Assembly: GCA_030592465.1 (NCBI GenBank)
Contig: JAUVJB010000001.1
Span: forward strand, 1 to 45,776
Origin: Bacteroidota bacterium
GTDB lineage: Bacteria; Bacteroidota; Bacteroidia; Bacteroidales; B39-G9
Direction of reading: 5' to 3'
DNA: 45,776 bases
A model generated the notes under the pieces. The model had not been told where the DNA came from, did not search any database, and saw only the letters and a list, made by a program, of their open reading frames with translations. Position 1 is the stretch's first letter. Every line of letters begins with the position of its first letter. The position numbers and the translations under genes are program-made. This document shows positions 1 to 20,905 of the stretch, one piece after another.

Positions 1-134
1 ATTTTTAACTCTTTATAAATTTGACGAGAATCTGATGAAATAATACAAGTATCTAATTTCTGTGCAATCTTAACACTTAAATCGGTTTTGCCTATACCTG
101 TTGGGCCTAATATAACAATTAAATTCTTGCTCAT
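1..134 (-). CDS. miaA: tRNA dimethylallyltransferase MiaA, N-terminal fragment (continues beyond the window edge)
   Basis: Reverse-strand translation from the ATG at 134-132 gives [44 protein letters not shown]. The P-loop GPTGxGKT followed by S-DS-x-Q-I/V-Y is the MiaA N-terminal signature. It is absent from the ORF track because it is truncated. Confidence 0.75.
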
Positions 135-180: not shown

Positions 181-205
181 ATAAACGGTTATAATTTTAA
201 CATAT
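181..205. repeat. 25-bp module ATAAACGGTTATAATTTTAACATAT, with an identical copy at 1439-1463 and a core copy at 13855-13868 in opposite orientation
   Basis: Direct string comparison: 25/25 identical between 181-205 and 1439-1463. The core TAAAATTATAACCG reappears reverse-complemented at 13855-13868. Confidence 0.9.
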
Positions 206-220
206 TATAGTCATTAATAG

Positions 221-257
221 ACCGACCTTCCAGTGTCTGAAAGACCTGGAAGAGTCC
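221..257. repeat. Hairpin module splitting the tandem array (stem 227-238 / 242-252, one bulge, GAA loop); related inverted copy at 6520-6556
   Basis: cttccag(t)gtct-gaa-agacctggaag pairs by hand. A gtcattaata unit lies at 210-219 before it and the array resumes at 254. 6520-6556 (ccgacttttccaggtctttcagactctgtaaggtctc) is the reverse-complement relative. Confidence 0.8.
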
Positions 258-552
258 ATTAATTGTCATTGATAGTCATTAAATAGTCATTAATAGTCAT
301 TGATAGTCATTAATAGTCATTAAATAGTCATTAATAGTCATTGATAGTCATTAAATAGTCATTGATAGTCATTAAATAGTCATTAATAGTCATTAATAGT
401 CATTAATAGTCATTAATAGTCATTAATAGTCATTAATAGTCATTAAATAGTCATTGATAGTCATTAATTGTCATTGATAGTCATTAATAGTCATTAATAG
501 TCATTAATAGTCATTAATAGTCATTAATAGTCATTAAATAGTTATGAATGAC
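254..552. repeat. Tandem 10/11-bp minisatellite with core GTCATT; 27 clean units (265-540) plus degenerate end units
   Basis: Hand-parsed units: 14x gtcattaata, 6x gtcattgata, 6x gtcattaaata (11 bp), 1x gtcattaatt. There are runs of 6 and 5 identical units. Degenerate flanking units are gtccattaatt (254) and gttatgaatgac (541). Units are head-to-tail with no spacers. Confidence 0.95.
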
Positions 553-613
553 AGCGAAGCAAATGACGGCAAAGCCAAATGCCCCTATAAACTATTGCTA
601 AAACACTTAAGAA

Positions 614-1423
614 CTAACGATGTAAATCCTTCAAACCTCTCTCATTATCCTTTCCTCGTTTCTTATTTTTATCTTTTAATCTCGCATTTATAATTTTACC
701 AAAACGATAACTCACAAACAATGAAGCAAAATAAAAATCATTATCTTTTGTAGCCATTATCTTAATTTTCTTAGGAAAAACTTCAAACACTGCTCCTATT
801 TCAATGGCATTAACTTTTTCGTCTTTTTTGCTAAACTCAAAACTTGCACCAACTTTTGAATAGATGCCGGGAATTACAGATATTTCGTCAAATCCTTTAA
901 AAAAAGATGCTCGTTCATAAATATCAAAAATACTATGAATTGATGTATTAAATTTCTCTGTTTTGATTTGATAATAGCCTGAATAATTATATACAATTTC
1001 ATAATAAATAGGTTTAAGAATGCCGATAGTGGGACCTGCCGAATAGAAATATCTTATTTCAATACCTCCTTTATCAAGCTTACTATAAAGTCTTTTTTGC
1101 TTACCTAAACCAAGCCGAAGACTATAAAAATTATTTTCTTTACCAAAAACAAAACGTTTTAAATTTGGGTAATACGGATTTGATGTTTTTATCTCTTTTG
1201 GATGTCGAATACCGACAATATCAATATTGTAAATTTTTTTGTTAAAAGCGTCAATCATTTTACCATATTGATAATTTACACCCCATCCATTTGAATTAAG
1301 AAGAAAGCTGTAAGTACTCTCATTTCGTTGGAATATCTTTTGTTCGTCATCAATATCACCTTGAGTAAATGCTACTTGACTAATAGCTGTTAAAAATGCT
1401 AATATTAGTAAATGACGTTTCAT
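614..1423 (-). CDS. Hypothetical secreted protein, probably an outer-membrane beta-barrel
   Basis: ORF 614-1471 trimmed to the MKRHLLILAFLTAISQVAFTQ signal peptide (ATG at 1423). It shows alternating hydrophobic beta-strand patterning and a barrel-like SYRFG near the C-terminus, followed by a basic tail. No family recognised. Confidence 0.65.
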   Translation of the reverse strand: MKRHLLILAFLTAISQVAFTQGDIDDEQKIFQRNESTYSFLLNSNGWGVNYQYGKMIDAFNKKIYNIDIVGIRHPKEIKTSNPYYPNLKRFVFGKENNFYSLRLGLGKQKRLYSKLDKGGIEIRYFYSAGPTIGILKPIYYEIVYNYSGYYQIKTEKFNTSIHSIFDIYERASFFKGFDEISVIPGIYSKVGASFEFSKKDEKVNAIEIGAVFEVFPKKIKIMATKDNDFYFASLFVSYRFGKIINARLKDKNKKRGKDNERGLKDLHR

Positions 1424-1438
1424 AAATATCTGTTTACT

Positions 1439-1831
1439 ATAAACGGTTATAATTTTAACATATATTGTCATTGATTGTCATTAAATAGTCAATAAATAAC
1501 CGAATGACCCTATGAAATATTGCTTTGCAATTTACTCACATCCCTGTCTGCGTGCGGCACGCCTGCCTTTGCCTGCTGCACGCAGACAGGCACAGGCAGG
1601 TTTATCTTATTTTTAAGGTGTTCGTGAAATCGCTTCGCTTCGCTTAGTTCACCCAGTGAAATAATTTTGCGGTGCAAAATTAATCAGACAACTGCCTAAT
1701 TATTTCACGGGGTGAACAGGGCAGGCGGTGAAACAAATGACCACAGTGAAATACCTGATAAATCAGGATTTCACGGAGCAGGCAACAAATGATAAATTAT
1801 ATTACACAAAATATAACCACGCAAAGTATAA
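1439..1831 (+). repeat. Composite intergenic repeat, copy B (25-bp module + GTCATT units + GC-rich hairpin + GTGAAAT/ATTTCAC palindrome cluster + TATAACC-GCAAAGTATA end)
   Basis: It aligns by eye, module by module, with the reverse complement of 13589-13875. Examples: ggtgaaacaaatgaccacagtgaaatacctgataaatcaggatttcacgg vs cgtgaaacaaatgaccctgatgaaataacctgataaatcagaatttcacgg, and caaaatataaccacgcaaagtataa vs caaaatataaccgcacaaagtataa. Its left part matches 181-600. Confidence 0.8.
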
Positions 1832-1982: not shown

Positions 1983-2108
1983 TTATACAGATTTTTCTAC
2001 TTGTACTGTACTTGCCTGACTATAAGCAGGACATTTTTTTGTACTGCAAGAACTTAAAACCGCAATTAGAATAACAAAAGATGCAAATAATAAAATTTTT
2101 CTTTTCAT
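1983..2108 (-). CDS. Small putative lipoprotein (41 aa), not in the ORF track
   Basis: Reverse-strand ATG at 2108 gives MKRKILLFASFVILIAVLSSCSTKKCPAYSQASTVQVEKSV*. It has a signal peptide with the lipobox LSSC. It lies 90 nt downstream of, and co-oriented with, the O-antigen-ligase-like gene. The short length limits confidence. Confidence 0.45.
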   Translation of the reverse strand: MKRKILLFASFVILIAVLSSCSTKKCPAYSQASTVQVEKSV

Positions 2109-2198
2109 TGTAAAATTATTTAATTTAATAATATAAATATACAAAAAATAAAATATAAAGGCTACAAAAATAATTATAATTTTTATATTTGAAAAATT

Positions 2199-4277: not shown

Positions 4278-4457
4278 TCTATAATTTTTTACTGTTTTTT
4301 TAAAAAAAATAATTTAAAACAAATGTAAAACATAATTTTAAAAAATTTAATTTTTCTTAATCTTAAATTTGTTTGTTCAAAATTTTTATTCATTTTTGTT
4401 CACTGAAATATAAATTTAGTACTTATCTGTAATGATTTTGACAGGTAATTTTTTTTA

Positions 4458-4608
4458 TTGTTAAATTGTTCTATTGTTGAGTCCGCTCCGAAAAGACTTC
4501 ATAGACGTCATTGTGAAAGCGAAAATCGAAGCAATCTGTTAATAATCAACAAAAGGATTGCTTCTCTGCCAGTTGGCGGATCGTAATGACGAAAAACACT
4601 TTTCAGAG
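4458..4608. repeat. Modular palindromic repeat (TTGTTAAATTGTTCTATTG end + cgtcattg...gaagcaatc / gattgcttc...aatgacg long hairpin)
   Basis: Arms pair by hand: cgtcatt/aatgacg, gaagcaatc/gattgcttc, ccgaaaag/cttttcag(a)g. About 80 bp (4481-4560) recur as a direct repeat at 5517-5598. The 3' half recurs at 13885-13960. Confidence 0.85.
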
Positions 4609-4777
4609 TAGTTTCATAATATAAATTATTTTTATTTGCTTATATATAGCGAATTATCAACAAATTGAGAAATATATAATATTCAATATTTTTAAAAAAA
4701 ATCTGACACTATATAATACAATGTAAGTCTAATATGCCCGATTATCTGCAAGTTAAAAGCAAAAATGAAATGTTGAT

Positions 4778-5473
4778 ATGACTAAAAACAAATTAATGAA
4801 AATTGATTCTGTTATCATAAAAAAGAATATCTATTATTTAATTGATAACAATGGTAGAGTGAAAAAATTCAAACCTTGGCTTGGCGATATTTTTTCATTC
4901 TTATATGACAGAATTATGGAAAAATCTATATTCCCTAAAAAATTTGGTGGGGATATAAACAAGCATTTTGAAATATTAAGAAATGAATTTAAGAGCATTT
5001 GTGATAAAAATATTTTGGAAATAGCAACAGGAAGTGGTAATGCAGTTTATTTTCTAAATCGTGATAATAAATATACAGGAATTGACATAAGTGTCGGTCT
5101 TTTACAAAAGGCATATAAAAGGTTAAAAAAAAATGGATTTAAAAATGTGAAATTATACAATGCTAATGCTTGCAACATCCCTTTTGATGATAATGTTTTT
5201 GACATTGGGATATGTAATTTATCTTTAAATTTTTTCAATGACATTGAAATATTTGTCAAAGAATTAAAAAGAGTATTAAAATCAGAAGCATTTTTTTATT
5301 GTAGCGTTCCAATTCCTGAAAAAAATACAAAAAAAAATAAAATAAGGGGAATTTTATATTCTGAAAGTGAATTGAAAACAATTTTTGAAAGACATAATTT
5401 TCATTTTGAAAGCAAACCATATGAAAATGGAACATTATTATATTTTTCAGCAAGTTTAAGTAAAAATAAATAA
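4778..5473 (+). CDS. Class I SAM-dependent methyltransferase (Methyltransf_11-like)
   Basis: Motif I ILEIATGSGN, post-I GIDIS, and FDIGICNLSLNFF / LKRVLK motifs in canonical order. Confidence 0.85.
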   Translation: MTKNKLMKIDSVIIKKNIYYLIDNNGRVKKFKPWLGDIFSFLYDRIMEKSIFPKKFGGDINKHFEILRNEFKSICDKNILEIATGSGNAVYFLNRDNKYTGIDISVGLLQKAYKRLKKNGFKNVKLYNANACNIPFDDNVFDIGICNLSLNFFNDIEIFVKELKRVLKSEAFFYCSVPIPEKNTKKNKIRGILYSESELKTIFERHNFHFESKPYENGTLLYFSASLSKNK

Positions 5474-5516
5474 ACTAATAACAAAAAAAACTGTACACAC
5501 GCTATAATATATATAA

Positions 5517-5681
5517 GTCCCCTATGAAAGGACTTCATAGACGTCATTGTGTGGGAGAAAATCGAAGCAATCTGTTGATAATCAACATAAAAAGATTGTC
5601 AAACTGTGAGATTACTCCGAAACAATTTTTAGCCGATTAATAAATTTTCGGAATGAACTCAGCAATAGAACAATTTAACAA
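5517..5681. repeat. Modular repeat, partner of 4458-4608, ending in CAATAGAACAATTTAACAA
   Basis: 5517-5598 is a direct copy of 4481-4560 (gtccSct..gacttcatagacgtcattgtg..gaaaatcgaagcaatctgttRataatcaaca..gattg). 5663-5681 is the exact reverse complement of 4458-4476 (19/19). Confidence 0.85.
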
Positions 5682-5717
5682 TATAGCAATTTAATAATTT
5701 AACAATTTAATAAATTT

Positions 5718-6464
5718 ATGATGCAGACAATATTAAATCACCGTTCAATAAGAAAATATAAAAATATTACTATTGATGACAATACTTTAAATGAAATACT
5801 TAACGCAGGCATAAGAGCTTCAAATACAGGCAATATGCAAACATACAGTATTGTTGTTACAAAAAATGAAGATATAAAAAAACAACTTTGGGAGGTTCAT
5901 TTTAAACAAGATATGGTTTTGCAAGCGCCGGTTATTTTAACATTTTGTGCAGATATAAACCGTTTTAGTAAATGGTGCAACTTGCGAAATGCAGAACCCG
6001 GATATGATAATTTTCTTTGGCTTTATAATGCTACTATTGATGCAATTCTTGCTTCTCAAAACATTGTATTAGCTGCCGAAAATAAAGGTCTCGGAATTTG
6101 CTATTTAGGCACCACAACATATATGGCTGATAAAATTGTTGATATTCTTAAATTGCCAAAAGGCGTTGTCCCTGTAACCTCAATTACTTTGGGTTATGCT
6201 GATGAAAATCCCGAATTAACAGACCGTTTACCTTTAAGCGGCGTTATTCACAACGATACTTATAACGATTACTCTGACGGCGATATAAATAAAATTTATA
6301 AAGAAAAAGAAAATTTAAAAGAGACTATCGACCTTATTGAAGAAAACAAAACTCAAAACCTTGCTCAAATTTTCACTCAAAAACGTTACACAAAAAAAGA
6401 CAATGTACTTTTCTCTAATCAATTTTTAAAAGTATTAGAAAAACAAGGCTTTATGAATCAATGA
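5718..6464 (+). CDS. NAD(P)H nitroreductase family protein (NfsA-like)
   Basis: N-terminal LNHRSIRKY motif, an internal GLGICYLG segment, and length and overall pattern typical of oxygen-insensitive nitroreductases. Confidence 0.8.
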   Translation: MMQTILNHRSIRKYKNITIDDNTLNEILNAGIRASNTGNMQTYSIVVTKNEDIKKQLWEVHFKQDMVLQAPVILTFCADINRFSKWCNLRNAEPGYDNFLWLYNATIDAILASQNIVLAAENKGLGICYLGTTTYMADKIVDILKLPKGVVPVTSITLGYADENPELTDRLPLSGVIHNDTYNDYSDGDINKIYKEKENLKETIDLIEENKTQNLAQIFTQKRYTKKDNVLFSNQFLKVLEKQGFMNQ

Positions 6465-6703
6465 ATAGAGTTTGATGTTTAGAGTTTAAAGTTTAAAGTT
6501 TACGCCAAGTCGCTAAAATCCGACTTTTCCAGGTCTTTCAGACTCTGTAAGGTCTCAACAATATAACCATTTAACCATTTAACAATTTTTATAATCTGAA
6601 TAATAAAATTTTATCTATTTTAAGGTTCTGTAACGAAATAACTATCTTTGTAAACAATTACAATTTTTCATACTTTTAATACCTTAATTGAACTCAAAAA
6701 AAA

Positions 6704-12176: not shown

Positions 12177-12500
12177 ACAAAAATTGTTAAATGGCTAAAT
12201 TGTTAAAACTTGTCAGGCTTTTGACTGATTGTTATAATAATTGTTCTTATATCTTAATAATAACTAACTGGTTTAAGTTTGTAACTTAAACCAAAGTTGA
12301 AAATTACTCGTGATAAGTAACTAAATATAAATAAATTACAAAATCCAACCGAATTTGGCTGTAATACCTTTTAATCTATTAATCTTTAAATCTTGTTTAT
12401 ATTTTTATGCATGATTTTTATACTTGACATGTTTGTCCCCAACTTTTGAACTTGACCCCAGAAAACAATATAACAATTTAACAATTTAGCAATATACAAA

Positions 12501-13568
12501 ATGAATATTAAACAGAGAATTGAAGCTTTTGCAAAACTTGGTAATTTTTTAGCTCAATTTGAAAATAATTCAACAAAAAAAAACAATTCACCTCTTAATA
12601 ATAAATTTTATGACGATTTTAATAAACTTATATCAATAATTGAAATCAAAAATCAATGGTTTACCATAAAACACGTAAGATATTCAATATCAGCAATTGC
12701 GAACTTACTAACTGAAAAGAATCTTTCAAAATGGATTAATAATTACCCGAATATTAATAACAACAACACAAAAAAAACAATAGGTGTTATTATGGCCGGC
12801 AACATTCCTCTTGTTGGATTTCACGACTTGCTTTGTGTTCTAATTTCAGGACATAAGTTTTTGGGTAAAATGTCATCAAAAGATAATCAATTGATAAAAA
12901 AAATTACTGAAATATTAATTTCAATTAATCCTGAATTTAAAGAACTAATTTCATTTACTGAACAAAATTTATCAAATTTTGATGCCATTATTGCAACAGG
13001 GAGTAACAATACATCACGATATTTTGAATTCTACTTTAAAAATTATCCACACATTATTAGAAAAAACAGAAATTCCATTGCAATACTCAATGGAAACGAA
13101 ACTATAAATGAGTTACATAATTTAGCAGACGATATTTTTCTCTATTTTGGTTTAGGATGCAGAAATATTTCAAAACTTTACGTACCCAACGACTATAATT
13201 TCGACATTTTTTTTAAGGCAATTAATCATTATAGAAACATCATAAATCATAAAAAATATGCTAATAACTACAAATATTATAAATCAATATTATTAATAAA
13301 CAAAACACCTCATCTCGACAACGGTTTTTTATTACTAAAAGAAGATTTTTCAATATCATCACCTATATCAACAATTTATTACGAAAAATATCACAACATC
13401 AATGATTTAACCAAAGCCATAAATCAAAACTTAGAAAATATTCAATGTATTGTAACAAACTGCAACGAATTTAAAAATAAAATAGAATTTGGACAAGCTC
13501 AAAAACCAGAGTTATGGGATTATGCCGACAATGTTGATACATTAAAATTTTTAATGCAGATTAATTAG
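12501..13568 (+). CDS. Acyl-CoA reductase, LuxC family
   Basis: The GVIMAGNIPLVGFHDLLCVLISGHK segment and ~355-aa length match the Bacteroidota LuxC-like acyl-CoA reductase family, as I recall it. Confidence 0.7.
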   Translation: MNIKQRIEAFAKLGNFLAQFENNSTKKNNSPLNNKFYDDFNKLISIIEIKNQWFTIKHVRYSISAIANLLTEKNLSKWINNYPNINNNNTKKTIGVIMAGNIPLVGFHDLLCVLISGHKFLGKMSSKDNQLIKKITEILISINPEFKELISFTEQNLSNFDAIIATGSNNTSRYFEFYFKNYPHIIRKNRNSIAILNGNETINELHNLADDIFLYFGLGCRNISKLYVPNDYNFDIFFKAINHYRNIINHKKYANNYKYYKSILLINKTPHLDNGFLLLKEDFSISSPISTIYYEKYHNINDLTKAINQNLENIQCIVTNCNEFKNKIEFGQAQKPELWDYADNVDTLKFLMQIN

Positions 13569-13588
13569 TGTCCATCCGTAAAGTCGAT

Positions 13589-13875
13589 TATACTTTGTGC
13601 GGTTATATTTTGCGTATTGTAATTTGCTTGCCCCGTGAAATTCTGATTTATCAGGTTATTTCATCAGGGTCATTTGTTTCACGTCATTTGTTGTCATTTA
13701 GCTTCGCTGCCTGTCCTGTGAAATTGTTTGCCAAGTGAAATGCAAAGCATATTTCACAATGGCGAAGCAATATTTCACGGGATCATTTGGCTTCATGGTC
13801 ATTCATAACTATTTAATGACAATCAATGACTATTAATGTCCGCCAGCTGGCGGATAAAATTATAACCGAGTGAAG
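13589..13875 (-). repeat. Composite intergenic repeat, copy C (inverted relative to copy B at 1439-1831)
   Basis: Its reverse complement is colinear with 1439-1831: TAAAATTATAACCG, gtcattgattgtcattaaatagt, the GTGAAAT/ATTTCAC cluster, and the caaaatataaccgcacaaagtataa end. It carries 3 exact GTGAAAT and 2 exact ATTTCAC, the same counts as copy B. Confidence 0.8.
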
Positions 13876-14105
13876 TATATAATAGACGGCATTGCGTCTC
13901 TACCTGTTTAAGATTGCTTCTCCGCCAGCTGGTGTATCGCAATGACGAAAACACACTTTTAGTAGTGGACACAACTTTATGATTTAAAAAAATGTGCTAA
14001 CCTGCCACATAATATTAAAAAAAATGCTTTTTTTTAAACTAAATTATTATTAACTTGCTTGCTGATAAATTTTTAGAATTTTTATAAACTTGAAATCGTA
14101 ACATT

Positions 14106-17057
14106 ATGAGAAACAAATACTTATTAATAACACTTGCAGTTGTAACAACAGTTGTTTTATTATCATTTTCCCCTTTTAAAGGAGATGTTACAAAAAATTA
14201 CACTCCTCGTAATACCATCCAACAACAAAAAAGAGGGATAAAAGGCGCAATTGAATGGGTAAGTAGAAGAAGAAATAATCAAATTACTCATACAGTTGAC
14301 CCTAAAGATATTATCAAAGCTCAAAAAAAAATATCAGCTCTAAGAATGCAAAAAAATAAATCATCATTAGGTTTAGAATGGACAGAACTTGGACCCGATA
14401 ATATTGGTGGCAGAACACGTGCAATTTTAATTGATAAAGATAATCCTAATCTTATGTTTGCAGGCGGTGTTGCCGGTGGTTTGTGGAAATCAACAACTGC
14501 AGGTCAAGCATGGTCACAAGTAACAGATGTAAATTTTATTAATCTCGCAGTTGTTTCAATTTGTCAAGCTGCAAACGGTGATATTTATTTTGGCACAGGA
14601 GAAGGTATGGCTCATAACTTAGGTGACGGTACAAGTGGTTTTGAAGGTGCAGGTATTTGGAAATCAACCAACCATGGTGAAACTTTCACTAAACTAACAT
14701 CTACTTGGGACACTCCGGAAGCACAAAGTATTTTTGTTAATGTTAATAAATTAGCAGCCGACCCTGATGATGCCAACTTAATTTATGCTGCTACTAAAAG
14801 AGGCTTGCGGTACACTAACGATGGTGGTACAAATTGGAACAGCGCATTAAGTGTTGCAGAGTATGACACATTAGTTGCTTCTGATGTAAAAATTGCAAGT
14901 GATGGCTCTATTATTGCATCTATCGGGAATATTGCTTTTATCAAACGTAAAGGTACTGATAATGCTTTTCAAAAACGTTCCGGAGACGATGAAGATGAAG
15001 ACGGAACCCAAATCTCAGACTCATTAATAAGTCGTCTTGAATTTGCTTTTTCTCCATCCGACCCTAATTATGTCTATTGTGCTGCAGCAAAAACTGATGG
15101 AACATTAAGAAATATTTATCAATCAAAAGATAAGGGTGATACTTGGAAAATTATTGGTAACGGAGGTGCTGAACAATTCCAACCATTTGGTACACAAGGT
15201 AGTTATAACAATGTTATTGCTGTTTATCCCGATAATCCTGAGAAAATTCTTGTTGGAGGTCTTGATATTTGGAGAGGTACTTCTGTTGCAGGTTCTGTTA
15301 CTTTTGAATGGGAACAAATTACACTATGGGGTTTATTTTCTATACATCCATTATACGTACATGCCGACCAACATGTAATTATTTTCAATCCTCTAAATCC
15401 TTCAATAATATTTATTGGAAGTGATGGCGGTATTACACGTGCTATTGATGATGGAAAAAGCTTTACTTGTCAAACTATGAACACTAATTATAATGTTACT
15501 CAATTTTATTCTGTTGCTTACTCAGGCACCGGAGAACTATTAGGCGGCACACAAGATAATGGTACATTATATTTTAACTTTATGGGAAACACTCCGAAAA
15601 ATGCTTTTGAAATTTTGGACGGAGACGGAGGCTATTGCGAATTTTCTAAATTAAATCCAAATATCTACTTTGCTACAATGTATTATGGAGGACTCGTACG
15701 AACCAGTGATTTAGAAAAATTTGGGCAAGAATTTTATTCCGAGAAATTAATAACTGCTTTAACGAATTATGGTGCAGCATTTGTTACTCCTGTTGCATTG
15801 TGGGAAACAAAAAACGACCCATTAAGCAGAGATACTATTTATTTTGTTGCAAAACGTGATTACTATGAAGGTGAACAAATAACTTTTAAAAGTCATAATG
15901 CTTATGAACAGCCTATTCCATTTACAATTTCTGCAAATGATGCTCATCCTGATTCTTTATCTTACGTTAAAGATGACACAATAAAAATTCACGACCCTTA
16001 TCAATCATTATTTGCTTTAGGACTAACTAAATCTGTTTGGATAACCCGAATGGCTACCAATTTCAACACTACTGTTGGTGATAACGATTGGTGGTCAATT
16101 GTAAAACCAACTGTACTTTCATACGATGAAACTGTTGAATACTTAGCGTTCTCAAACGATGGAAATCATTTATTCTTCTCAACAAACAAAAATAAACTCT
16201 ATCGTTCATCAAACCTTAAAAATGCCCGCAGCTATCTTAACGCTGATGCGGTCTCTGCTGGAGATGCATTAGTTGTTAATACTCAACTCATTGCCGATTT
16301 TAATGATAGAGCTATTACAAGTATCACTACTGACCCTCAAAATGTTGAAAATCTTGTAGTAACACTCGGTAACTATGGTAATGATAATTATGTTTATTTT
16401 TCAACAAATGCAGCAACTACCACAAGTGAAGATGTAAATGTGAATTTTGCCTCACGTCAAGGCGATTTACCTCAAGCACCTGTTTATTCAGCAACTTTCC
16501 ACTACGAAGGCTCTGAAAAAGTTATTCTTGGTACTGAATATGGTGTTTTTGCAACAGATATAATTTCAGGAGGTCATGGACAAGTATCAGAAACTTGTGT
16601 TTGGACAGAAGAAAATACCGGTTTAGACATTGTTCCTGTTTTTATGGTTCGTGAACAAGCTTGGGCAAACTCTTGGCAACCACACATTACTAATCATGGA
16701 TATTTATATGTGGCTACTCACGGCAGAGGCTTATTTTATAGCAAAACACTAAAAGGTCCTGTTTCTATTGATGAAAACCCTATTGCTTTAAATTCATCTA
16801 ATAAGATTAATATTGATGTTTATCCTAACCCGATTGTTGATGTTGCAAATATTTCTTATGACATTACTGATAACTCAGATGTTCAAATTAATCTTTATAA
16901 CATTCAAGGTAAATTAGTTAAAAAAGTTAATTTGTCTGCTCAAACAATTGGTAAACACAACTATCAATTTAACATTAAAGGTATAACCCAAGGTACATAT
17001 ATTTTAAATATTGTAGCGGGTAATAAATCAAACTCAAAAAGAGTTATTATTTACTAA
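14106..17057 (+). CDS. T9SS cargo: BNR/sortilin(VPS10)-like beta-propeller protein with type-A C-terminal sorting domain
   Basis: N-terminal signal anchor. GGRTRAILIDKDNPNLMFAGGVAGGLWKSTTAGQAWSQV plus repeated S-x-D-x-G-x-T/W-type blades (KSTNHGETF, TNDGGTNW, SKDKGDTW, DDGKSF). C-terminus VYPNPIVDVANISYDI...LYNIQGKLV...GTYILNIV is a T9SS CTD. Confidence 0.85.
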   Translation: MRNKYLLITLAVVTTVVLLSFSPFKGDVTKNYTPRNTIQQQKRGIKGAIEWVSRRRNNQITHTVDPKDIIKAQKKISALRMQKNKSSLGLEWTELGPDNIGGRTRAILIDKDNPNLMFAGGVAGGLWKSTTAGQAWSQVTDVNFINLAVVSICQAANGDIYFGTGEGMAHNLGDGTSGFEGAGIWKSTNHGETFTKLTSTWDTPEAQSIFVNVNKLAADPDDANLIYAATKRGLRYTNDGGTNWNSALSVAEYDTLVASDVKIASDGSIIASIGNIAFIKRKGTDNAFQKRSGDDEDEDGTQISDSLISRLEFAFSPSDPNYVYCAAAKTDGTLRNIYQSKDKGDTWKIIGNGGAEQFQPFGTQGSYNNVIAVYPDNPEKILVGGLDIWRGTSVAGSVTFEWEQITLWGLFSIHPLYVHADQHVIIFNPLNPSIIFIGSDGGITRAIDDGKSFTCQTMNTNYNVTQFYSVAYSGTGELLGGTQDNGTLYFNFMGNTPKNAFEILDGDGGYCEFSKLNPNIYFATMYYGGLVRTSDLEKFGQEFYSEKLITALTNYGAAFVTPVALWETKNDPLSRDTIYFVAKRDYYEGEQITFKSHNAYEQPIPFTISANDAHPDSLSYVKDDTIKIHDPYQSLFALGLTKSVWITRMATNFNTTVGDNDWWSIVKPTVLSYDETVEYLAFSNDGNHLFFSTNKNKLYRSSNLKNARSYLNADAVSAGDALVVNTQLIADFNDRAITSITTDPQNVENLVVTLGNYGNDNYVYFSTNAATTTSEDVNVNFASRQGDLPQAPVYSATFHYEGSEKVILGTEYGVFATDIISGGHGQVSETCVWTEENTGLDIVPVFMVREQAWANSWQPHITNHGYLYVATHGRGLFYSKTLKGPVSIDENPIALNSSNKINIDVYPNPIVDVANISYDITDNSDVQINLYNIQGKLVKKVNLSAQTIGKHNYQFNIKGITQGTYILNIVAGNKSNSKRVIIY

Positions 17058-17989: not shown

Positions 17990-20905
17990 TTATTGTATTA
18001 ATATTTTTGTTTTAATCAGCTCTTTATCAGTATGTAAACTAATAAGAAATATTCCTTTTCCAAATTTTGATAAATCAATATTCTCTTTTGATTTCATGTC
18101 TTTTTTACAAAAAACAGTTTTCCCTATCATATTTGTTATTTTCAATTCCTTTATCTTTATTGGGTTTTCAACAATAATATTGATTATCCCTGTCGAAGGA
18201 TTCGGAAAAATTTTTATACTTTCATTTGCTAAATTTTTAATGCTTGAAATAACTGATAATGTGGCTATGTTACTTGTAATGTTTCCACAGGCATCTGTCC
18301 CTGTTATTTCGCAGGTATAATCCCCTGCATCATCATTTGTGATTTTATTTATTGTAAGTTGATGTGTTATTGCACCATTAATGTGTGTATTGTTGTTTAA
18401 TACACTATCATCTTTATACCATTGGTAATTAATAATATCTCCTTCGGCTATAACTGTAAATACAGCATCTTCATTTATATTTAACGATTGTGAAATAGGT
18501 TGTGTTGTAATTAAAACTGATTGATCAACAAATAAAGTTGCAGTATCGCTAATAATGCTATCAGTTACACTACTTACTATACATTGATATTGGTATCCAT
18601 CAATGTCTGCCGTTGCATTGGTAATAGTTAGTGTGTCTGTTGTTGCTCCGCTATAAACACTTCCGTTTGTAATATTTATAAAGCCACTGCTTTCATTAAC
18701 TTGCCATTGATAACTTTCTACTCCTGTTACTGTAATACTAAAATTTGTGCTATTGCCTTCGCAAATTGTTTGATTTTCCGGTTGAGATGTAATTATTGGA
18801 AGCGAACCCAGATAATTATCTAATTTTGAAATAAACACATCGTCATCTCCGGCATAAGAATCATCATAAGCCCCTGATGATACCGGATAATTGCTTGATG
18901 TTGTATAACCTGTTACAAATACATTACCTGAAACATCAACAACTATTTCAGTACCGACATCTTCTCCTGCCCCTCCGAGAAAAGTAGAAGCGAATAAAGA
19001 GCTTAAATCAGAATTAAATTTAGAAATAAAGATATCACTTATATCGCCGTTATGCGAATTATCGTAAGCTGTTGTTGAAGTAGGAAAATCAGTTGACCCT
19101 GTATATCCTGTAATAAACACATTACCTGAAGTATCTAAATCAATTGAATAACATTCTTCATAACCTGAACCTCCTATAAAAGTAGATGCAGATAAAGTAC
19201 TCAAATCTGAATTAAATTTTGAAACAAACACATCACGACTTCCATTATGTATATTATCGTAAGCAGATGCAGATGTGGGAAAGTCGTCCGATTTAGTATG
19301 CCCTGTAACATATACATTATTAAAATCGTCAAGTTTGATCGAATAACCATAATCGGTATCGGTTCCTCCAATAAAAGTAGATGCTGATAAAGTACTTAAA
19401 TCTGATGTAAATTTTGAAACAAAGGCATCATAAGAACCATTGTGTGAAGGGTCATAAGCTCCTGCTGTTGAGGGATAATACGATGAGTATGTTTCTCCTG
19501 TAATATATACATTACCGGAACTGTCAAGCCTCAATGAATAACTAATATCACTTTCACTTCCTCCGATTAAAGTAGATGCAGAAAGTATGCTTAAATCAGA
19601 ATTTAGTTTTGATACAAAAACATCAATATTTCCGTTAAACGTTTCATTATAAGCCCCTGATGTTGTTGGATAACCTATGCCATATACAAATCCGGTAATA
19701 AAAATACTATCTGTGCCATCAATCGCAATTGAATAAGCTTTTTCAACATTAGTTCCTCCTATATAAGTTGATGCAAGCAAAGAGCTTAAATCAGAATTGA
19801 ATTTTGCAACAAATACATCATAATTACCGCTAAGTGAATTATCATAAGGTGTTCCGGCCATAGGGAAATCATTTGACCAAGTATTTCCAGTGATATAAAT
19901 ATTACTATTGCTGTCAAAAGCAAGATACCTGCTGTAGTCTGAATTACTGCCACCCACAAAAGTTGATATCAATAAGGTTTGTAAATCAGGACTGAATTTT
20001 GAAATAAAGACATCATAAGCTCCATTAACAGAAGTATTATATGCCCCTGCCGTTGTAGGGTAAAATGTTGAATGTGTTTCACCGGTAACAAAAATATTTC
20101 CCGAATCATCTAAAACCACACACCAACTGTCATCTCTTCCTGTTCCTCCCACAAAAGTAGAAGCAATAAGAGGATCAATTACAAGCTCATAATCAGGATT
20201 GTAATTACCAACTTCAAAACCATAAGTTTTATTGTTTTTTGTGTAAGCAACTTCTACATAATGCTTTTTGTTTTCGATAATCTGATATGCAACAGGAGTA
20301 GTAAATTTAATATTTCCTTGTGTAGTTTTAATAATAAGCTCACCGTTTTTAGCAATCTTTATTTTTTTTGCACCTTTAAGTTTTAGTTGTATTTTTTCAG
20401 GGGAAATGCCAGGACCTACATAAAAAAGTTTTTCTATATTATTGCCATAAGCATTAAGTTTAACTTTTATGCCTTCCCAAATTTGACCAAGATTTACAGT
20501 TTGATATGTTGTGATATTATTTTGCCATTTATTAGGATCATCGCCAATAAATGAGTTTACAATTGTTTGTGACGGCAATTCTGCAGAAACCTGTAATGTT
20601 TTTTTGTTTGTTTCAAAAGTTTCGCGAAAAACATATGAACTCAAACTGTCAACAGACATGTTATAAACTATTTCGCCTTTATGTGTCAGGAAAACCGTTC
20701 CTCCAAATGTTTTGGCATAAAAAGCCACGTCAGAGTGCTTCTGTCCTTTATTTTTTATCCAAGGAATTTTTGTTTTGTCAATTTCTTTTGATATTGCTGC
20801 TTTTTCAATATCAGATAAACTGTTTTGTTGAAAATTGATTTGAGCATTTGTGTTAATATAAATAAAATATAAACATGCTAGTAACAGTAATAATTTTGAT
20901 TTCAT
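17990..20905 (-). CDS. T9SS cargo: seven SBBP beta-propeller repeats + two Ig (I-set-like) domains + C-terminal sorting domain
   Basis: Seven ~63-aa repeats of STF(I/V)GG..D....I.(L)D..GN(V/I)(F/Y)(I/V)TG.T.S..FP(T)...AYD....G..D(V)F(V/I)SKFNSDLS(T)L. Two segments have the YQWQ/YQWYKDD...DAGDYTC Ig pattern. C-terminus IKIFPNPSTGIINIIVE...GIFLISL. Confidence 0.85.
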   Translation of the reverse strand: MKSKLLLLLACLYFIYINTNAQINFQQNSLSDIEKAAISKEIDKTKIPWIKNKGQKHSDVAFYAKTFGGTVFLTHKGEIVYNMSVDSLSSYVFRETFETNKKTLQVSAELPSQTIVNSFIGDDPNKWQNNITTYQTVNLGQIWEGIKVKLNAYGNNIEKLFYVGPGISPEKIQLKLKGAKKIKIAKNGELIIKTTQGNIKFTTPVAYQIIENKKHYVEVAYTKNNKTYGFEVGNYNPDYELVIDPLIASTFVGGTGRDDSWCVVLDDSGNIFVTGETHSTFYPTTAGAYNTSVNGAYDVFISKFSPDLQTLLISTFVGGSNSDYSRYLAFDSNSNIYITGNTWSNDFPMAGTPYDNSLSGNYDVFVAKFNSDLSSLLASTYIGGTNVEKAYSIAIDGTDSIFITGFVYGIGYPTTSGAYNETFNGNIDVFVSKLNSDLSILSASTLIGGSESDISYSLRLDSSGNVYITGETYSSYYPSTAGAYDPSHNGSYDAFVSKFTSDLSTLSASTFIGGTDTDYGYSIKLDDFNNVYVTGHTKSDDFPTSASAYDNIHNGSRDVFVSKFNSDLSTLSASTFIGGSGYEECYSIDLDTSGNVFITGYTGSTDFPTSTTAYDNSHNGDISDIFISKFNSDLSSLFASTFLGGAGEDVGTEIVVDVSGNVFVTGYTTSSNYPVSSGAYDDSYAGDDDVFISKLDNYLGSLPIITSQPENQTICEGNSTNFSITVTGVESYQWQVNESSGFINITNGSVYSGATTDTLTITNATADIDGYQYQCIVSSVTDSIISDTATLFVDQSVLITTQPISQSLNINEDAVFTVIAEGDIINYQWYKDDSVLNNNTHINGAITHQLTINKITNDDAGDYTCEITGTDACGNITSNIATLSVISSIKNLANESIKIFPNPSTGIINIIVENPIKIKELKITNMIGKTVFCKKDMKSKENIDLSKFGKGIFLISLHTDKELIKTKILIQ

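What the first reader, a model, noticed from the sequence alone, without database searches (positions are those of the whole stretch)
254..552. 27-unit tandem array with a ~10.2-bp period (one helical turn), an expanded copy of a module present elsewhere with 2-3 units
Seen: 27 head-to-tail units over 276 bp (265-540), in four variants (14 gtcattaata, 6 gtcattgata, 6 eleven-bp gtcattaaata, 1 gtcattaatt). Runs of 6 and 5 identical units suggest recent slippage. The mean period is about one DNA helical turn, so every GTCATT core faces roughly the same side of the helix. Inference: that geometry suits cooperative protein-binding arrays or curved DNA. The same module has only 2-3 units at 1466-1492 and 13796-13838, so this copy is an expansion. 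It fills most of the 480-bp region upstream of miaA (minus strand), downstream of 614-1423, and is interrupted by a 37-bp hairpin module (221-257). It is likely length-polymorphic and easy to mis-assemble.
Basis: partly seen in the sequence, partly recalled or inferred. Interest (0 to 1): 0.6.

Follow-up and report, generated by a model that had tools for sequence, protein, structure and literature searches.

The report
Expanded decamer arm of mosaic repeat
The 27-unit GTCATT array is real, and it is one over-grown arm of a small non-coding repeat element that occurs many times between genes across the Bacteroidota and their sister phyla; this element family appears undescribed, and nothing ties it specifically to the neighbouring miaA gene.

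Summary
There are 27 head-to-tail GTCATT units at 265-540, with a mean period of 10.22 bp. One more unit sits at 210-219, before a nested 33-nt palindrome. The array lies in the 479-bp spacer between ORF270 and miaA.

The array is not a stand-alone microsatellite. It is the left arm of a non-coding mosaic element with this layout: end module, then (GTCATT-N4)n, a short turn, then (AATGAC-N4 or AATGAC plus a GCGAAGC mini-hairpin)m. The window holds three copies.

A scan of reference genomes found the same polar layout in more than 100 intergenic loci. About 88% were from Bacteroidota, Ignavibacteria, Marinimicrobia or Balneolales. In these loci the hexamer never varies while the spacers do. Non-FCB and viral hits were plain uniform repeats without the inverted arm.

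Relatives with the same gene order have an empty site (51 bp), or only 1-3 units, where the window has 28. Copy 2 is missing from all five relatives.

Best reading: a MITE/BIME/BrickBuilt-like repeat family whose decamers are reiterated recognition sites for an unknown protein. This copy was inflated by replication slippage. A specific role at miaA, a defined RNA structure and special curvature are not supported. The unit count inside the two uniform runs is unverified.

The parts
1..134 (-). 5' part of miaA (tRNA isopentenyltransferase). It is the gene downstream of the element. It is a neighbour, not part of the element.
   Evidence: The translation starts [17 protein letters not shown]. Pfam IPT, E 4e-7. 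Relatives keep the ORF270-miaA gene order.
183..209 (+). End ('leader') module AAACGGTTATAATTTTAACATATTATA of the composite element.
   Evidence: The core CGGTTATAATTTTA occurs exactly at 186, at 1444 and at 13855 on the minus strand. The same leader precedes GTCATT units in L153 and, diverged, in L019.
210..219 (+). First decamer unit, GTCATTAATA, cut off from the rest of the array by the nested palindrome.
220..256 (+). Nested small palindromic module (hairpin 224-256) inserted within the decamer run.
   Evidence: DNA fold -9.8 kcal/mol, z -5.5. A second copy lies inverted at 6522-6554, 91% complementary (I11). Logan contigs show the same module with other flanks.
254..264 (+). Degenerate unit, GTCCATTAATT.
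265..540 (+). The 27-unit GTCATT array: the left arm of the element, hyper-expanded.
   Evidence: The unit order is G K A G A K A G K G K A A A A A A K G T G A A A A A K, where A=AATA, G=GATA, K=AAATA and T=AATT. TRF also reports a period of 41.
541..546 (+). Turn: a degenerate core, GTTATG, between the two arms.
   Evidence: Turns of 5-60 nt occur in family members.
547..583 (+). Right (inverted) arm: AATGAC (547-552), a, GCGAAGC (554-560), a, AATGAC (562-567), GGCAAAGCC (568-576), a, AATGCC (578-583).
   Evidence: TRF reports period 15 at 547-581. In the family, AATGAC occurs 261 times downstream of arrays against 10 times upstream, and GCGNAGC-type words 54 against 7.
570..596 (+). Tail with homology to copy 2 (1495-1521). 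The right boundary of copy 1 is uncertain, and no right end module is seen.
   Evidence: family D15 (74%)
614..1423 (-). ORF270, a conserved hypothetical protein of Bacteroidales. It is the gene upstream of the element on the same strand as miaA. It is a neighbour, not part of the element.
   Evidence: 1090 homologues with E <= 1e-10, none with a Pfam domain.
1441..1831 (+). Copy 2 of the composite element: leader, 2-3 units, AATGAC tail, GTGAAAT/CACGG sub-repeats, a nested GC-rich hairpin at 1543-1590, and the inverted end module GGTTATATTTTG.
   Evidence: Alignment with copy 3. Hairpin z -4.5. The element is absent from the orthologous site in L118, L119, L121, L123 and L154.
13588..13868 (-). 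Copy 3 of the composite element. It carries a 15-nt CCGCCAGCTGGCGG hairpin nested in its leader, GTCATT x3 at 13669-13698 and AATGAC x2-3 at 13815-13838.
   Evidence: (I1, I8, I12, I13, I20)
6522..6554 (-). Second copy of the small palindromic module that interrupts the array.
   Evidence: I11. Its fold is weak (z -1.0).

Best explanation
The array is the over-grown left arm of one copy of a non-coding, multi-copy mosaic intergenic repeat, of the MITE/BIME/BrickBuilt kind.

The family is built from a decamer, RTNGTCATTN. Each element has a run of direct units, (GTCATT-N4)n, then a short turn, then a run of inverted units, (AATGAC-N4)m. In the inverted run the spacer is often replaced by a GNA-triloop mini-hairpin such as GCGAAGC.

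Shown here:
- The anatomy of the element.
- Three copies in the window.
- Presence or absence at orthologous sites in relatives.
- Nested insertion of other small palindromes.
- Strictly intergenic location with no orientation bias.
- Spread of the family across the FCB phyla.

Inferred:
- The unit number changes by slipped-strand mispairing or unequal exchange, including multi-unit steps. This copy grew from a few units to 28 in its own lineage.
- The invariant core and the fixed arm polarity persist because each decamer is a recognition site for a trans-acting DNA-binding protein. That protein is most likely the enzyme that spreads or maintains the element, and it may act on single-stranded DNA.
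- The array has no dedicated function for miaA. Any effect on the ORF270-miaA transcript or on local DNA shape is a by-product.
For: Array and arms in the window.

Composite element: copies 2 and 3 align end to end and differ by whole-module insertions and deletions. Their ends carry inverted GGTTATA(A)TTTT.

Family scan: four GTCATT cores at 10/11-bp spacing were found in more than 117 genome stretches. 99 of the 113 with a named taxon are FCB.

Location: 137 of 144 arrays are intergenic. Flanking-gene orientation classes are 23/23/22/20.

Core constraint: the unit logo is GTCATT-N-R(87%)-T(81%)-N. FCB arrays are heterogeneous; the commonest unit has a median share of 0.40. Non-FCB arrays (1.00) and viral arrays (0.67) are simple repeats.

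Polarity, which was not part of the search pattern: AATGAC occurs 261 times within 150 nt downstream and 10 times upstream. Two or more downstream AATGAC occur at 52 of 120 FCB arrays, 1 of 13 non-FCB arrays and 0 of 27 viral arrays.

Clear full examples: L028, L090, L037, L001, L106 and L115. One MAG holds at least 12 copies of a 370-bp non-coding version.

Orthologous site: 51 bp and empty in L119/L120. One to three units in L121-L123. A different end module in L154. Copy 2 is absent in five relatives, including one with 94% amino-acid identity.

Many loci share array words in the same samples.

Long arrays also occur in large MAG contigs that are probably long-read assemblies: L051 has 18 units and L040 has 10, with the same AATA/GATA unit types.
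Against: - No transposase or other candidate trans factor was found in the window or near arrays in 117 loci.
- Target-site duplications and exact element ends could not be defined. Copies 2 and 3 differ by about 10%, so no very recent transposition is seen.
- A hexamer conserved across phyla fits a conserved host protein as well as it fits a selfish element.
- All evidence is comparative. Binding, mobility and slippage were not observed directly.
Confidence: 0.55

Rival explanations
1. The array is a host-selected, helically phased protein-binding or curved-DNA element. It would regulate miaA or organise the local nucleoid through cooperative head-to-tail binding, as iterons, ParR-parC arrays or omega-heptad arrays do.
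For: - The period is 10.22 bp. Ten- and 11-mers are mixed, so neighbouring cores are within about 17 degrees of each other.
- The core plus R8 and T9 are conserved across phyla, as expected for a protein site.
- The fixed converging polarity of the arms recalls orientation rules for repressors that bind repeat arrays. This last point is from memory and was not tested.
- All three window copies and L153 have the leader end within 18-240 nt of a gene start.
Against: - The orthologous spacer is empty (51 bp) in L119/L120 and holds only 0-3 units in other relatives, so miaA does not need the array.
- There is no orientation or gene-class bias over 137 intergenic arrays.
- Arrays occur inside operons, between RND efflux genes, at varying positions.
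- Phase drifts by 274 degrees at 10.5 bp per turn, and modelled curvature is ordinary for a tandem array of this period.
- No partition or cognate regulator gene lies next to the array.
Confidence: 0.17
2. The element works at the RNA level. Transcribed within the ORF270-miaA transcript, it would act as a stabiliser or terminator hairpin, or as a sponge of repeated GUCAUU/AAUGAC motifs for an RNA-binding protein.
For: - ORF270 and miaA are on the same strand, and the element lies between them.
- The element reads the same way on both strands, so either transcript carries GUCAUU runs followed by AAUGAC runs.
- The region folds better than shuffled sequence (z -4.2).
Against: - The predicted fold is diffuse: the minimum-energy structure has ensemble frequency 0.
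- The two arms are not complementary in register. The score is 0.57, against 0.45-0.64 at shifted registers.
- In this copy the arms are 28 units against 2-3.
- There is no Rfam match.
- No contigs match in three metatranscriptomes, two from samples where the DNA is present and one from the same study. This is weak evidence.
- There is no bias towards 3' ends of genes or convergent gene pairs.
- GCGNAGC is known as an exceptionally stable DNA mini-hairpin (PMC13037366); whether its RNA counterpart is weaker is my own recollection.
Confidence: 0.1
3. The array length is an assembly artefact. Reads from several array-bearing loci would have been merged or over-extended.
For: - Short-read contigs break at the array.
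- Array words are 10-35 times deeper than the flanks and join to other flanks.
- The uniform runs of 60 and 50 bp exceed k=31.
- No long-read run was found.
Against: - Exact unitigs from an independent sample tile 150-700, including both unique junctions and the variant-unit transitions.
- Arrays of 10-18 units with the same unit types occur in large MAG contigs (L051, L040). Arrays of about 28 or more units occur in L038 and L079.
Confidence: 0.1
4. The array is a plain neutral microsatellite or minisatellite that arose locally by slippage and is unrelated to any wider element family.
For: - Runs of 6 and 5 identical units indicate recent slippage.
- Non-FCB and viral genomes do contain such simple GTCATT-bearing repeats.
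Against: - The same leader, core, inverted arm and mini-hairpins recur at two other places in the window and in more than 100 FCB loci.
- Arrays with saturated spacers but intact cores cannot arise by neutral decay.
Confidence: 0.03

Closest known systems
BrickBuilt MITE of Porphyromonas gingivalis (Klein et al. 2015, PMC4596501)
   Same: - Found in Bacteroidota.
- Non-coding and always intergenic, with many copies per genome.
- Modular layout: a leader, a tandem run of a short unit with no spacers, then a tail.
- Small inverted-repeat ends.
- Unit number varies widely between copies (1 to 22.8).
- Copies often carry only part of the leader or tail.
   Different: - The BrickBuilt unit is 23 nt, not 10-11 nt, and there is no sequence similarity.
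- BrickBuilt is reported as specific to one species, whereas this core is shared across phyla.
- Here the tail is an inverted run of the same core with GNA mini-hairpins.
- Promoter activity was shown for BrickBuilt and was not tested here.
REP / BIME / REPIN elements with their RAYT (TnpA-REP) enzymes
   Same: - Short extragenic repeats in high copy number.
- Units arranged in inverted and tandem clusters with fixed polarity.
- A short invariant tag (GTAG there, AATGAC here) next to a small hairpin.
- Found within operons.
- Gain and loss between relatives.
- A Bacteroidetes-specific RAYT-like subclass (2.6) with 'atypical' repeats exists (PMC6006769).
   Different: - There is no GT[AG]G tag.
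- Most units have no hairpin at all.
- Units are 10 bp, not 20-40 bp.
- No RAYT was found, and the published subclass-2.6 repeats do not contain GTCATT or AATGAC.
Pneumococcal BOX elements (boxA-(boxB)n-boxC). This comparison is from my own knowledge and no paper was read.
   Same: A modular non-autonomous repeat whose middle module varies in tandem copy number between copies. It is intergenic.
   Different: The units are 45 bp. The host is a Firmicute. There is no inverted arm built from the same core.
Cyanobacterial STRR heptamer arrays. This comparison is from my own knowledge; the searches found only passing mentions.
   Same: - Dispersed intergenic tandem runs of a very short unit.
- Shared across a whole clade, with unknown function.
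- STRR2 (TTGGTCA) is a rotation of GTCATTG.
   Different: The period is 7 bp, not 10-11 bp. The phylum differs. No GNA mini-hairpin arm is described. The shared letters may be coincidence.
Centromere or operator repeat arrays bound by ribbon-helix-helix proteins (R1 parC with ParR; omega heptads of pSM19035). This comparison is from my own knowledge.
   Same: Contiguous 7-11-bp direct or converging repeats bound cooperatively, with about one site per helical turn or less.
   Different: Those arrays are single loci next to their own par or regulatory genes on plasmids. Here there are dozens of chromosomal copies with no cognate gene nearby.

Membership tests
[quoted passage not shown] | Small (under about 500 bp), non-coding, several copies per genome | tested here: met
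   Three copies of 290-420 bp lie in 45.8 kb. No ORF of 40 aa or more crosses the array. One MAG has at least 12 copies.
[quoted passage not shown] | Terminal inverted repeats | tested here: inconclusive
   GGTTATA(A)TTTT lies inverted near both ends of copies 2 and 3, but the exact termini are not defined. Copy 1 lacks the right end.
[quoted passage not shown] | Target-site duplication | tested here: inconclusive
   Comparing the filled site for copy 2 with the empty site in L154 shows no clear duplication.
[quoted passage not shown] | Presence/absence polymorphism at orthologous sites | tested here: met
   Copy 2 is absent in five relatives. The site of copy 1 is empty in L119/L120.
[quoted passage not shown] | A related autonomous element that encodes the transposase | tested here: not met
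   None was found in the window or in 117 loci. Whole genomes could not be searched.
REP/BIME/REPIN-RAYT | A 20-40-nt imperfect palindrome as the unit | tested here: not met
   The array units are 10-11 nt with no hairpin. Only some right-arm units carry a 7-17-nt mini-hairpin.
REP/BIME/REPIN-RAYT | A conserved GT[AG]G tag at the 5' foot of the hairpin | tested here: not met
   The tag here is AATGAC, 0-2 nt before the hairpin.
REP/BIME/REPIN-RAYT | A cognate single-copy Y1 HUH gene flanked by the repeats | not testable with these tools
   No ORF with an HUH/Y1 motif occurs in the fetched loci.
BrickBuilt (P. gingivalis) | A 23-nt tandem unit with the BrickBuilt leader and tail sequences | tested here: not met
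   The unit is 10-11 nt and the leader and tail differ. The logic of the layout is the same, but this is not a member.
Plasmid-type iteron or centromere array | An adjacent cognate rep or par gene and a single locus per replicon | tested here: not met
   The neighbours are housekeeping chromosomal genes. There are many loci per genome.
CRISPR array | Repeats of 24-48 nt separated by unique spacers of similar length | tested here: not met
   The units are contiguous, with only 4-5 variable bases between the cores.
Phase-variation (contingency) simple-sequence repeat | A repeat tract inside a promoter spacer or reading frame, where unit number switches a gene on and off | tested here: inconclusive
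   The tract lies 75 nt or more upstream of the miaA start and after the ORF270 stop. Orthologues lack it. Expression was not tested.

The most novel reading that the evidence does not exclude
The GTCATT/AATGAC decamer arms with GNA mini-hairpins define a previously undescribed repeat system that spans the FCB superphylum and resembles REPINs. A six-base tag, rather than GTAG plus a hairpin, would be read many times over by one conserved trans-acting protein. That protein could be a Bacteroidetes-type single-copy Y1 HUH enzyme working on single-stranded DNA, or a conserved nucleoid protein. The arrays would then be a visible record of that protein's activity in thousands of genomes.
Probability: 0.25. 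Interest if true: 0.7.

Novelty: new variant of a known kind. Interest (0 to 1): 0.5.

Why it matters
- Assembly. These arrays break short-read assemblies of Bacteroidota MAGs. Many of the fetched arrays sit at contig ends. Knowing the motif helps to explain and repair such gaps.
- Biology. The family offers a clade-wide, easily searchable marker whose invariant core points to an unidentified DNA-binding or DNA-processing protein in a phylum where REP-like systems are barely described.
- Typing. Unit-number variation could serve as a strain marker.
- This locus. The practical message is that the array should not be read as a miaA regulatory feature.

Tried and rejected
- Rfam, at gathering and at permissive thresholds: nothing relevant. 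No tRNA or tmRNA.
- Exact-protein look-up of ORF270: not on record.
- Literature searches for GTCATT/AATGAC arrays, GCGAAGC repeats, STRR and RAYT in Bacteroidetes. No description of this family was found. Two hits on the motif were only a toy sequence and PCR primers.
- Metatranscriptomes: two from samples where the DNA is present and one from the same study. No RNA contigs matched, which is uninformative.
- Nanopore runs: none listed.
- Metagenome scan for the leader: only one true extra copy, L153. The other three hits were chance matches.
- Viral scan: only simple repeats. It was useful as a control.
- Neighbour-gene clustering and an HUH-motif search for a trans factor: only RND efflux genes recur, and there is no transposase.
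- Test for in-register complementarity of the arms: none, so a long perfect hairpin is rejected.
- Wedge-model curvature: not exceptional for the period. The parameters were recalled from memory, so this carries low weight.
- Spacer GC tracks genome GC only weakly (rho 0.23).
- A Bacteroidetes-type promoter (TAnnTTTG) was looked for by eye in the outward-facing leader and not found. No claim is made.
- Resemblance of the GATA/AATA units to a Fur box was considered. It was dropped because other family units lack it.
- Annotated plasmids and phages: no match.
Full report
1. THE OBSERVATION

GTCATT cores start at 265, 275... 530. The units are 14 GTCATTAATA, 6 GTCATTGATA, 6 GTCATTAAATA and 1 GTCATTAATT. 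That is 27 units in 276 bp, a mean period of 10.22 bp, with runs of six and five identical units. TRF scores the array 462 at period 10, and gives the same score at period 41, which hints at multi-unit duplication steps. Two cores spaced 3-6 nt apart occur 29 times in the window against 0.03 expected.

One more unit lies at 210-219 and a degenerate one at 254-264. Between them sits a palindromic module at 224-256 (DNA fold -9.8 kcal/mol, z -5.5). A second, diverged and inverted copy of that module lies at 6522-6554.

The array lies in the 479-bp spacer between the stop of ORF270 (1423->614, minus strand) and the start of miaA (134->1, minus strand). No reading frame of 40 codons or more crosses it.

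2. RELIABILITY OF THE ASSEMBLY

The window comes from a Bacteroidales genome found in marine-sediment and cold-seep metagenomes. It has 28.7% GC, cargo proteins of the type IX secretion system (T9SS), and homologues named Bacteroidales.

In an independent sample (X1), exact unitigs tile 150-700. They include both unique junctions and the transitions between unit variants. At k=31, however, the copy number inside the two uniform runs cannot be checked, and no long-read run was found. Array words are 10-35 times deeper than the flanks and join to several other flanks. So the same kind of array exists at many loci in these communities.

Arrays of 10-18 units with the same AATA/GATA unit types occur in large MAG contigs (L040, L051). 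Arrays of about 28 or more units occur in L038 and L079. Long arrays are therefore a real feature of the family.

3. WHAT THE ARRAY BELONGS TO

Immediately after the last unit comes a degenerate core (GTTATG). An inverted arm follows: AATGAC-a-GCGAAGC-a-AATGAC-GGCAAAGCC-a-AATGCC (547-583). Before the first unit lies a leader, AAACGGTTATAATTTTAACATAT.

The leader core CGGTTATAATTTTA recurs exactly at 1444 and, on the other strand, at 13855. Regions 1441-1831 (+) and 13868-13588 (-) align end to end as two copies of one composite element. They differ by whole-module insertions: a 15-nt CCGCCAGCTGGCGG hairpin and a roughly 60-nt GC-rich hairpin. Both carry GGTTATA(A)TTTT inverted near each end. 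Each has 2-3 GTCATT units and 2-3 AATGAC units.

The finding is thus copy 1 of this element. Its left arm is expanded to 28 units, a small palindrome is nested in it, and it has no recognisable right end.

4. THE FAMILY ELSEWHERE

A scan of one genome per species looked for four GTCATT cores at 10/11-bp spacing with any spacer sequence. Of the 113 with a named taxon, 99 are from the FCB group: Bacteroidales, Lentimicrobiaceae, Prolixibacteraceae, Saprospiraceae, Chitinophagales, Cytophagales (Dyadobacter, Spirosoma, Fibrella), Flavobacterium, Ignavibacteria, Marinimicrobia and Balneolales. From my own knowledge, Bacteroidota make up roughly a tenth of species in such collections, so this is a strong enrichment. 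The caveat is that the scan was truncated.

- Location. 137 of 144 arrays are intergenic. The four classes of flanking-gene orientation are equally common.
- Core constraint. The unit logo is GTCATT-N-R(87%)-T(81%)-N. In FCB genomes the units within one array mostly differ in their spacers (the commonest unit has a median share of 0.40) while all cores are intact. The 14 non-FCB arrays (1.00) and 29 viral arrays (0.67) are plain uniform repeats, and several lie inside reading frames. Saturated spacer positions next to 24 or more intact core positions cannot be produced by neutral decay of a slippage product. This holds in genomes from 29 to 56% GC.
- Polarity. This feature was not in the search pattern. 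Within 150 nt downstream of the arrays AATGAC occurs 261 times, against 10 times upstream (chance is about 5). GCGNAGC-type words occur 54 times downstream and 7 upstream, usually 0-2 nt after AATGAC. Two or more downstream AATGAC are seen at 52 of 120 FCB arrays, 1 of 13 non-FCB arrays and 0 of 27 viral arrays.

Clear full examples are L028 (Fibrella aquatica, between two RND-efflux genes), L090, L037, L001, L106 and L115. Because the layout is (GTCATT)n...(AATGAC)m on both strands, the lack of orientation bias is expected. One Bacteroidales MAG has at least 12 copies of a 370-bp non-coding version.

5. BEHAVIOUR OVER TIME

ORF270 has more than 1000 homologues in Bacteroidales. The gene order POTRA protein - nitroreductase - Wzy/TPR - small lipoprotein ORF - ORF270 - miaA is kept in relatives with 76-83% amino-acid identity.

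The ORF270-miaA spacer varies as follows:
- L119/L120: 51 bp with no element.
- L121/L122: 171 bp with GTCATTaaGCTTCGC plus decayed units.
- L123: 162 bp with one to two units in each arm.
- L118: a run of a different octamer repeat, then the contig ends.
- L154 (94% identity): a different end module, then the contig ends.
- The window: 479 bp.

Copy 2 of the element is absent from the orthologous site in all five relatives. The family therefore shows gain and loss at fixed sites.

6. TESTS OF HOW IT MIGHT WORK

Geometry. At 10.2 bp per turn the cores are in phase (R 0.95). At the standard 10.5 bp per turn they drift by about 274 degrees over the array (R 0.33). A wedge model, with parameters recalled from memory, predicts more curvature than shuffled sequence. 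The value is ordinary, however, compared with tandem arrays of permuted units with the same period (14th-20th percentile).

RNA. There is no Rfam match. The fold of the region is better than shuffles (z -4.2) but diffuse. No contigs matched in three metatranscriptomes, two from samples where the DNA is present and one from the same study; this is weak evidence.

Hairpin between the arms. In 16 elements with at least three units per arm, the spacers of the two arms are no more complementary in register (0.57) than out of register (0.45-0.64). They are more alike than arms from different elements (0.37). The arms share a pool of unit types but are not kept as a perfect palindrome.

Trans factor. 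No transposase is present in the window. Near arrays the only recurrent neighbours are RND efflux genes, and no ORF with a Y1 HUH motif was found.

Mini-hairpins. The GCGAAGC family is known as an exceptionally stable DNA mini-hairpin (PMC13037366). This is a hint, no more, that single-stranded DNA is involved.

7. EXPLANATION

I commit to the following, with confidence of about 0.55. The array is the slippage-inflated arm of a non-coding mosaic repeat of the MITE/BIME/BrickBuilt kind. Its decamers are reiterated recognition sites for an unidentified trans-acting protein. It has no dedicated role for miaA.

Shown: the anatomy, the multiplicity, the intergenic location, nesting, gain and loss, the clade-wide conserved core and the polarity.

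Inferred: slippage as the growth mechanism, protein recognition as the reason for the invariant core, and mobility as the mode of spread.

The rivals are set out with their tests in the Rival explanations section. They are a host phased binding array, an RNA element, an inflated assembly and a plain microsatellite.

8. COMPARISON WITH KNOWN SYSTEMS

The closest published relative in layout is BrickBuilt of Porphyromonas gingivalis. It has a leader, a run of 23-nt units (1 to 22.8 copies) and a tail. It is always intergenic and has small inverted ends (PMC4596501). This element is not a member, because the unit and the flanks differ.

REP/BIME/REPIN systems share the idea of a short invariant tag next to a hairpin, clustered in fixed orientations. 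A Bacteroidetes-specific RAYT-like subclass with 'atypical' repeats is on record (PMC6006769). Its listed repeats do not contain GTCATT or AATGAC. The defining GT[AG]G tag and the 20-40-nt palindrome are not met here.

Pneumococcal BOX, cyanobacterial STRR heptamers and plasmid repeat arrays bound by ribbon-helix-helix proteins are analogies from my own knowledge. I found no description of this decamer family in the searchable literature. There was no match in annotated plasmids or phages.

9. VERDICT

Novelty: a new variant of a known kind of element. Interest is moderate (0.5). The single array is ordinary once placed in its family. The family itself has a hexamer conserved across phyla, fixed arm polarity and DNA-type mini-hairpins, and it points to an unknown protein partner worth finding.

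Noticed in passing
window 4446-4478 (inverted), 5661-5718, 6557-6595, 12458-12505; L118 4855-4895: There is a second dispersed tandem family made of AACAATWT octamers. The runs end at or just before start codons (5718, 12501). In the 83% relative L118, such a run occupies the very site where the window has the GTCATT array.
   Followed up: partly
window 4278-5717: The methyltransferase ORF 4778-5473 lies between Wzy/TPR and the nitroreductase gene. In relatives L118-L123 these two genes are adjacent, with spacers of about 180-240 bp. So roughly 1.2 kb looks like an insertion. It is flanked by 75-nt direct repeats (4480-4554 and 5516-5590, 87% identical) and by inverted octamer runs.
   Followed up: partly
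window 1530-1790 and 13630-13790: The composite element carries further sub-repeats (GTGAAAT / ATTTCAC with CACGG) and nested GC-rich hairpins. One hairpin is at 1543-1590 (-21.4 kcal/mol, z -4.5). Another is CCGCCAGCTGGCGG at 13839-13854, and a similar CCGCCAGCTGG lies at 13922-13932. This suggests several families of small palindromes that insert into one another.
   Followed up: partly
window 183-209, 1441-1466, 13840-13868; L153 736-755: In all four copies seen, the leader end of the element faces a gene start 18-240 nt away (miaA, ORF270, the T9SS gene at 14106, and a gene in L153). No Bacteroidetes-type TAnnTTTG box was seen by eye. Promoter activity was not tested.
   Followed up: no
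L028 3731-3860, L042 1951-1987, and L035, L059, L065, L090, L103: Seven array-bearing loci from different genomes contain RND efflux operons (TolC-like, membrane-fusion and AcrB-like genes). In two of them the element lies between genes of the operon, at different junctions.
   Followed up: partly
window 18845-20019: Five to six tandem 195-nt coding repeats lie inside the 971-aa T9SS protein with SBBP beta-propeller repeats (17990-20905, minus strand).
   Followed up: no
L038 7300-8000; L006 and L059; L039: Core variants form their own runs next to GTCATT runs. GTAATT/AATTAC occurs in a Lentimicrobiaceae MAG. GGCATT/AAATGCC occurs in Saprospiraceae. AGTGAC alternates with AATGAC in Dyadobacter. 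The family therefore has lineage-specific core dialects.
   Followed up: no
window 1983-2144 (minus strand): A small lipoprotein-like ORF (MKRKILLFASFVILIAVLSSCSTKKCPAYSQ...) is conserved upstream of ORF270. It is called as a 41-aa gene in four of the relatives (L118, L121, L122, L154), and a similar reading frame is visible in L119 and L123.
   Followed up: no
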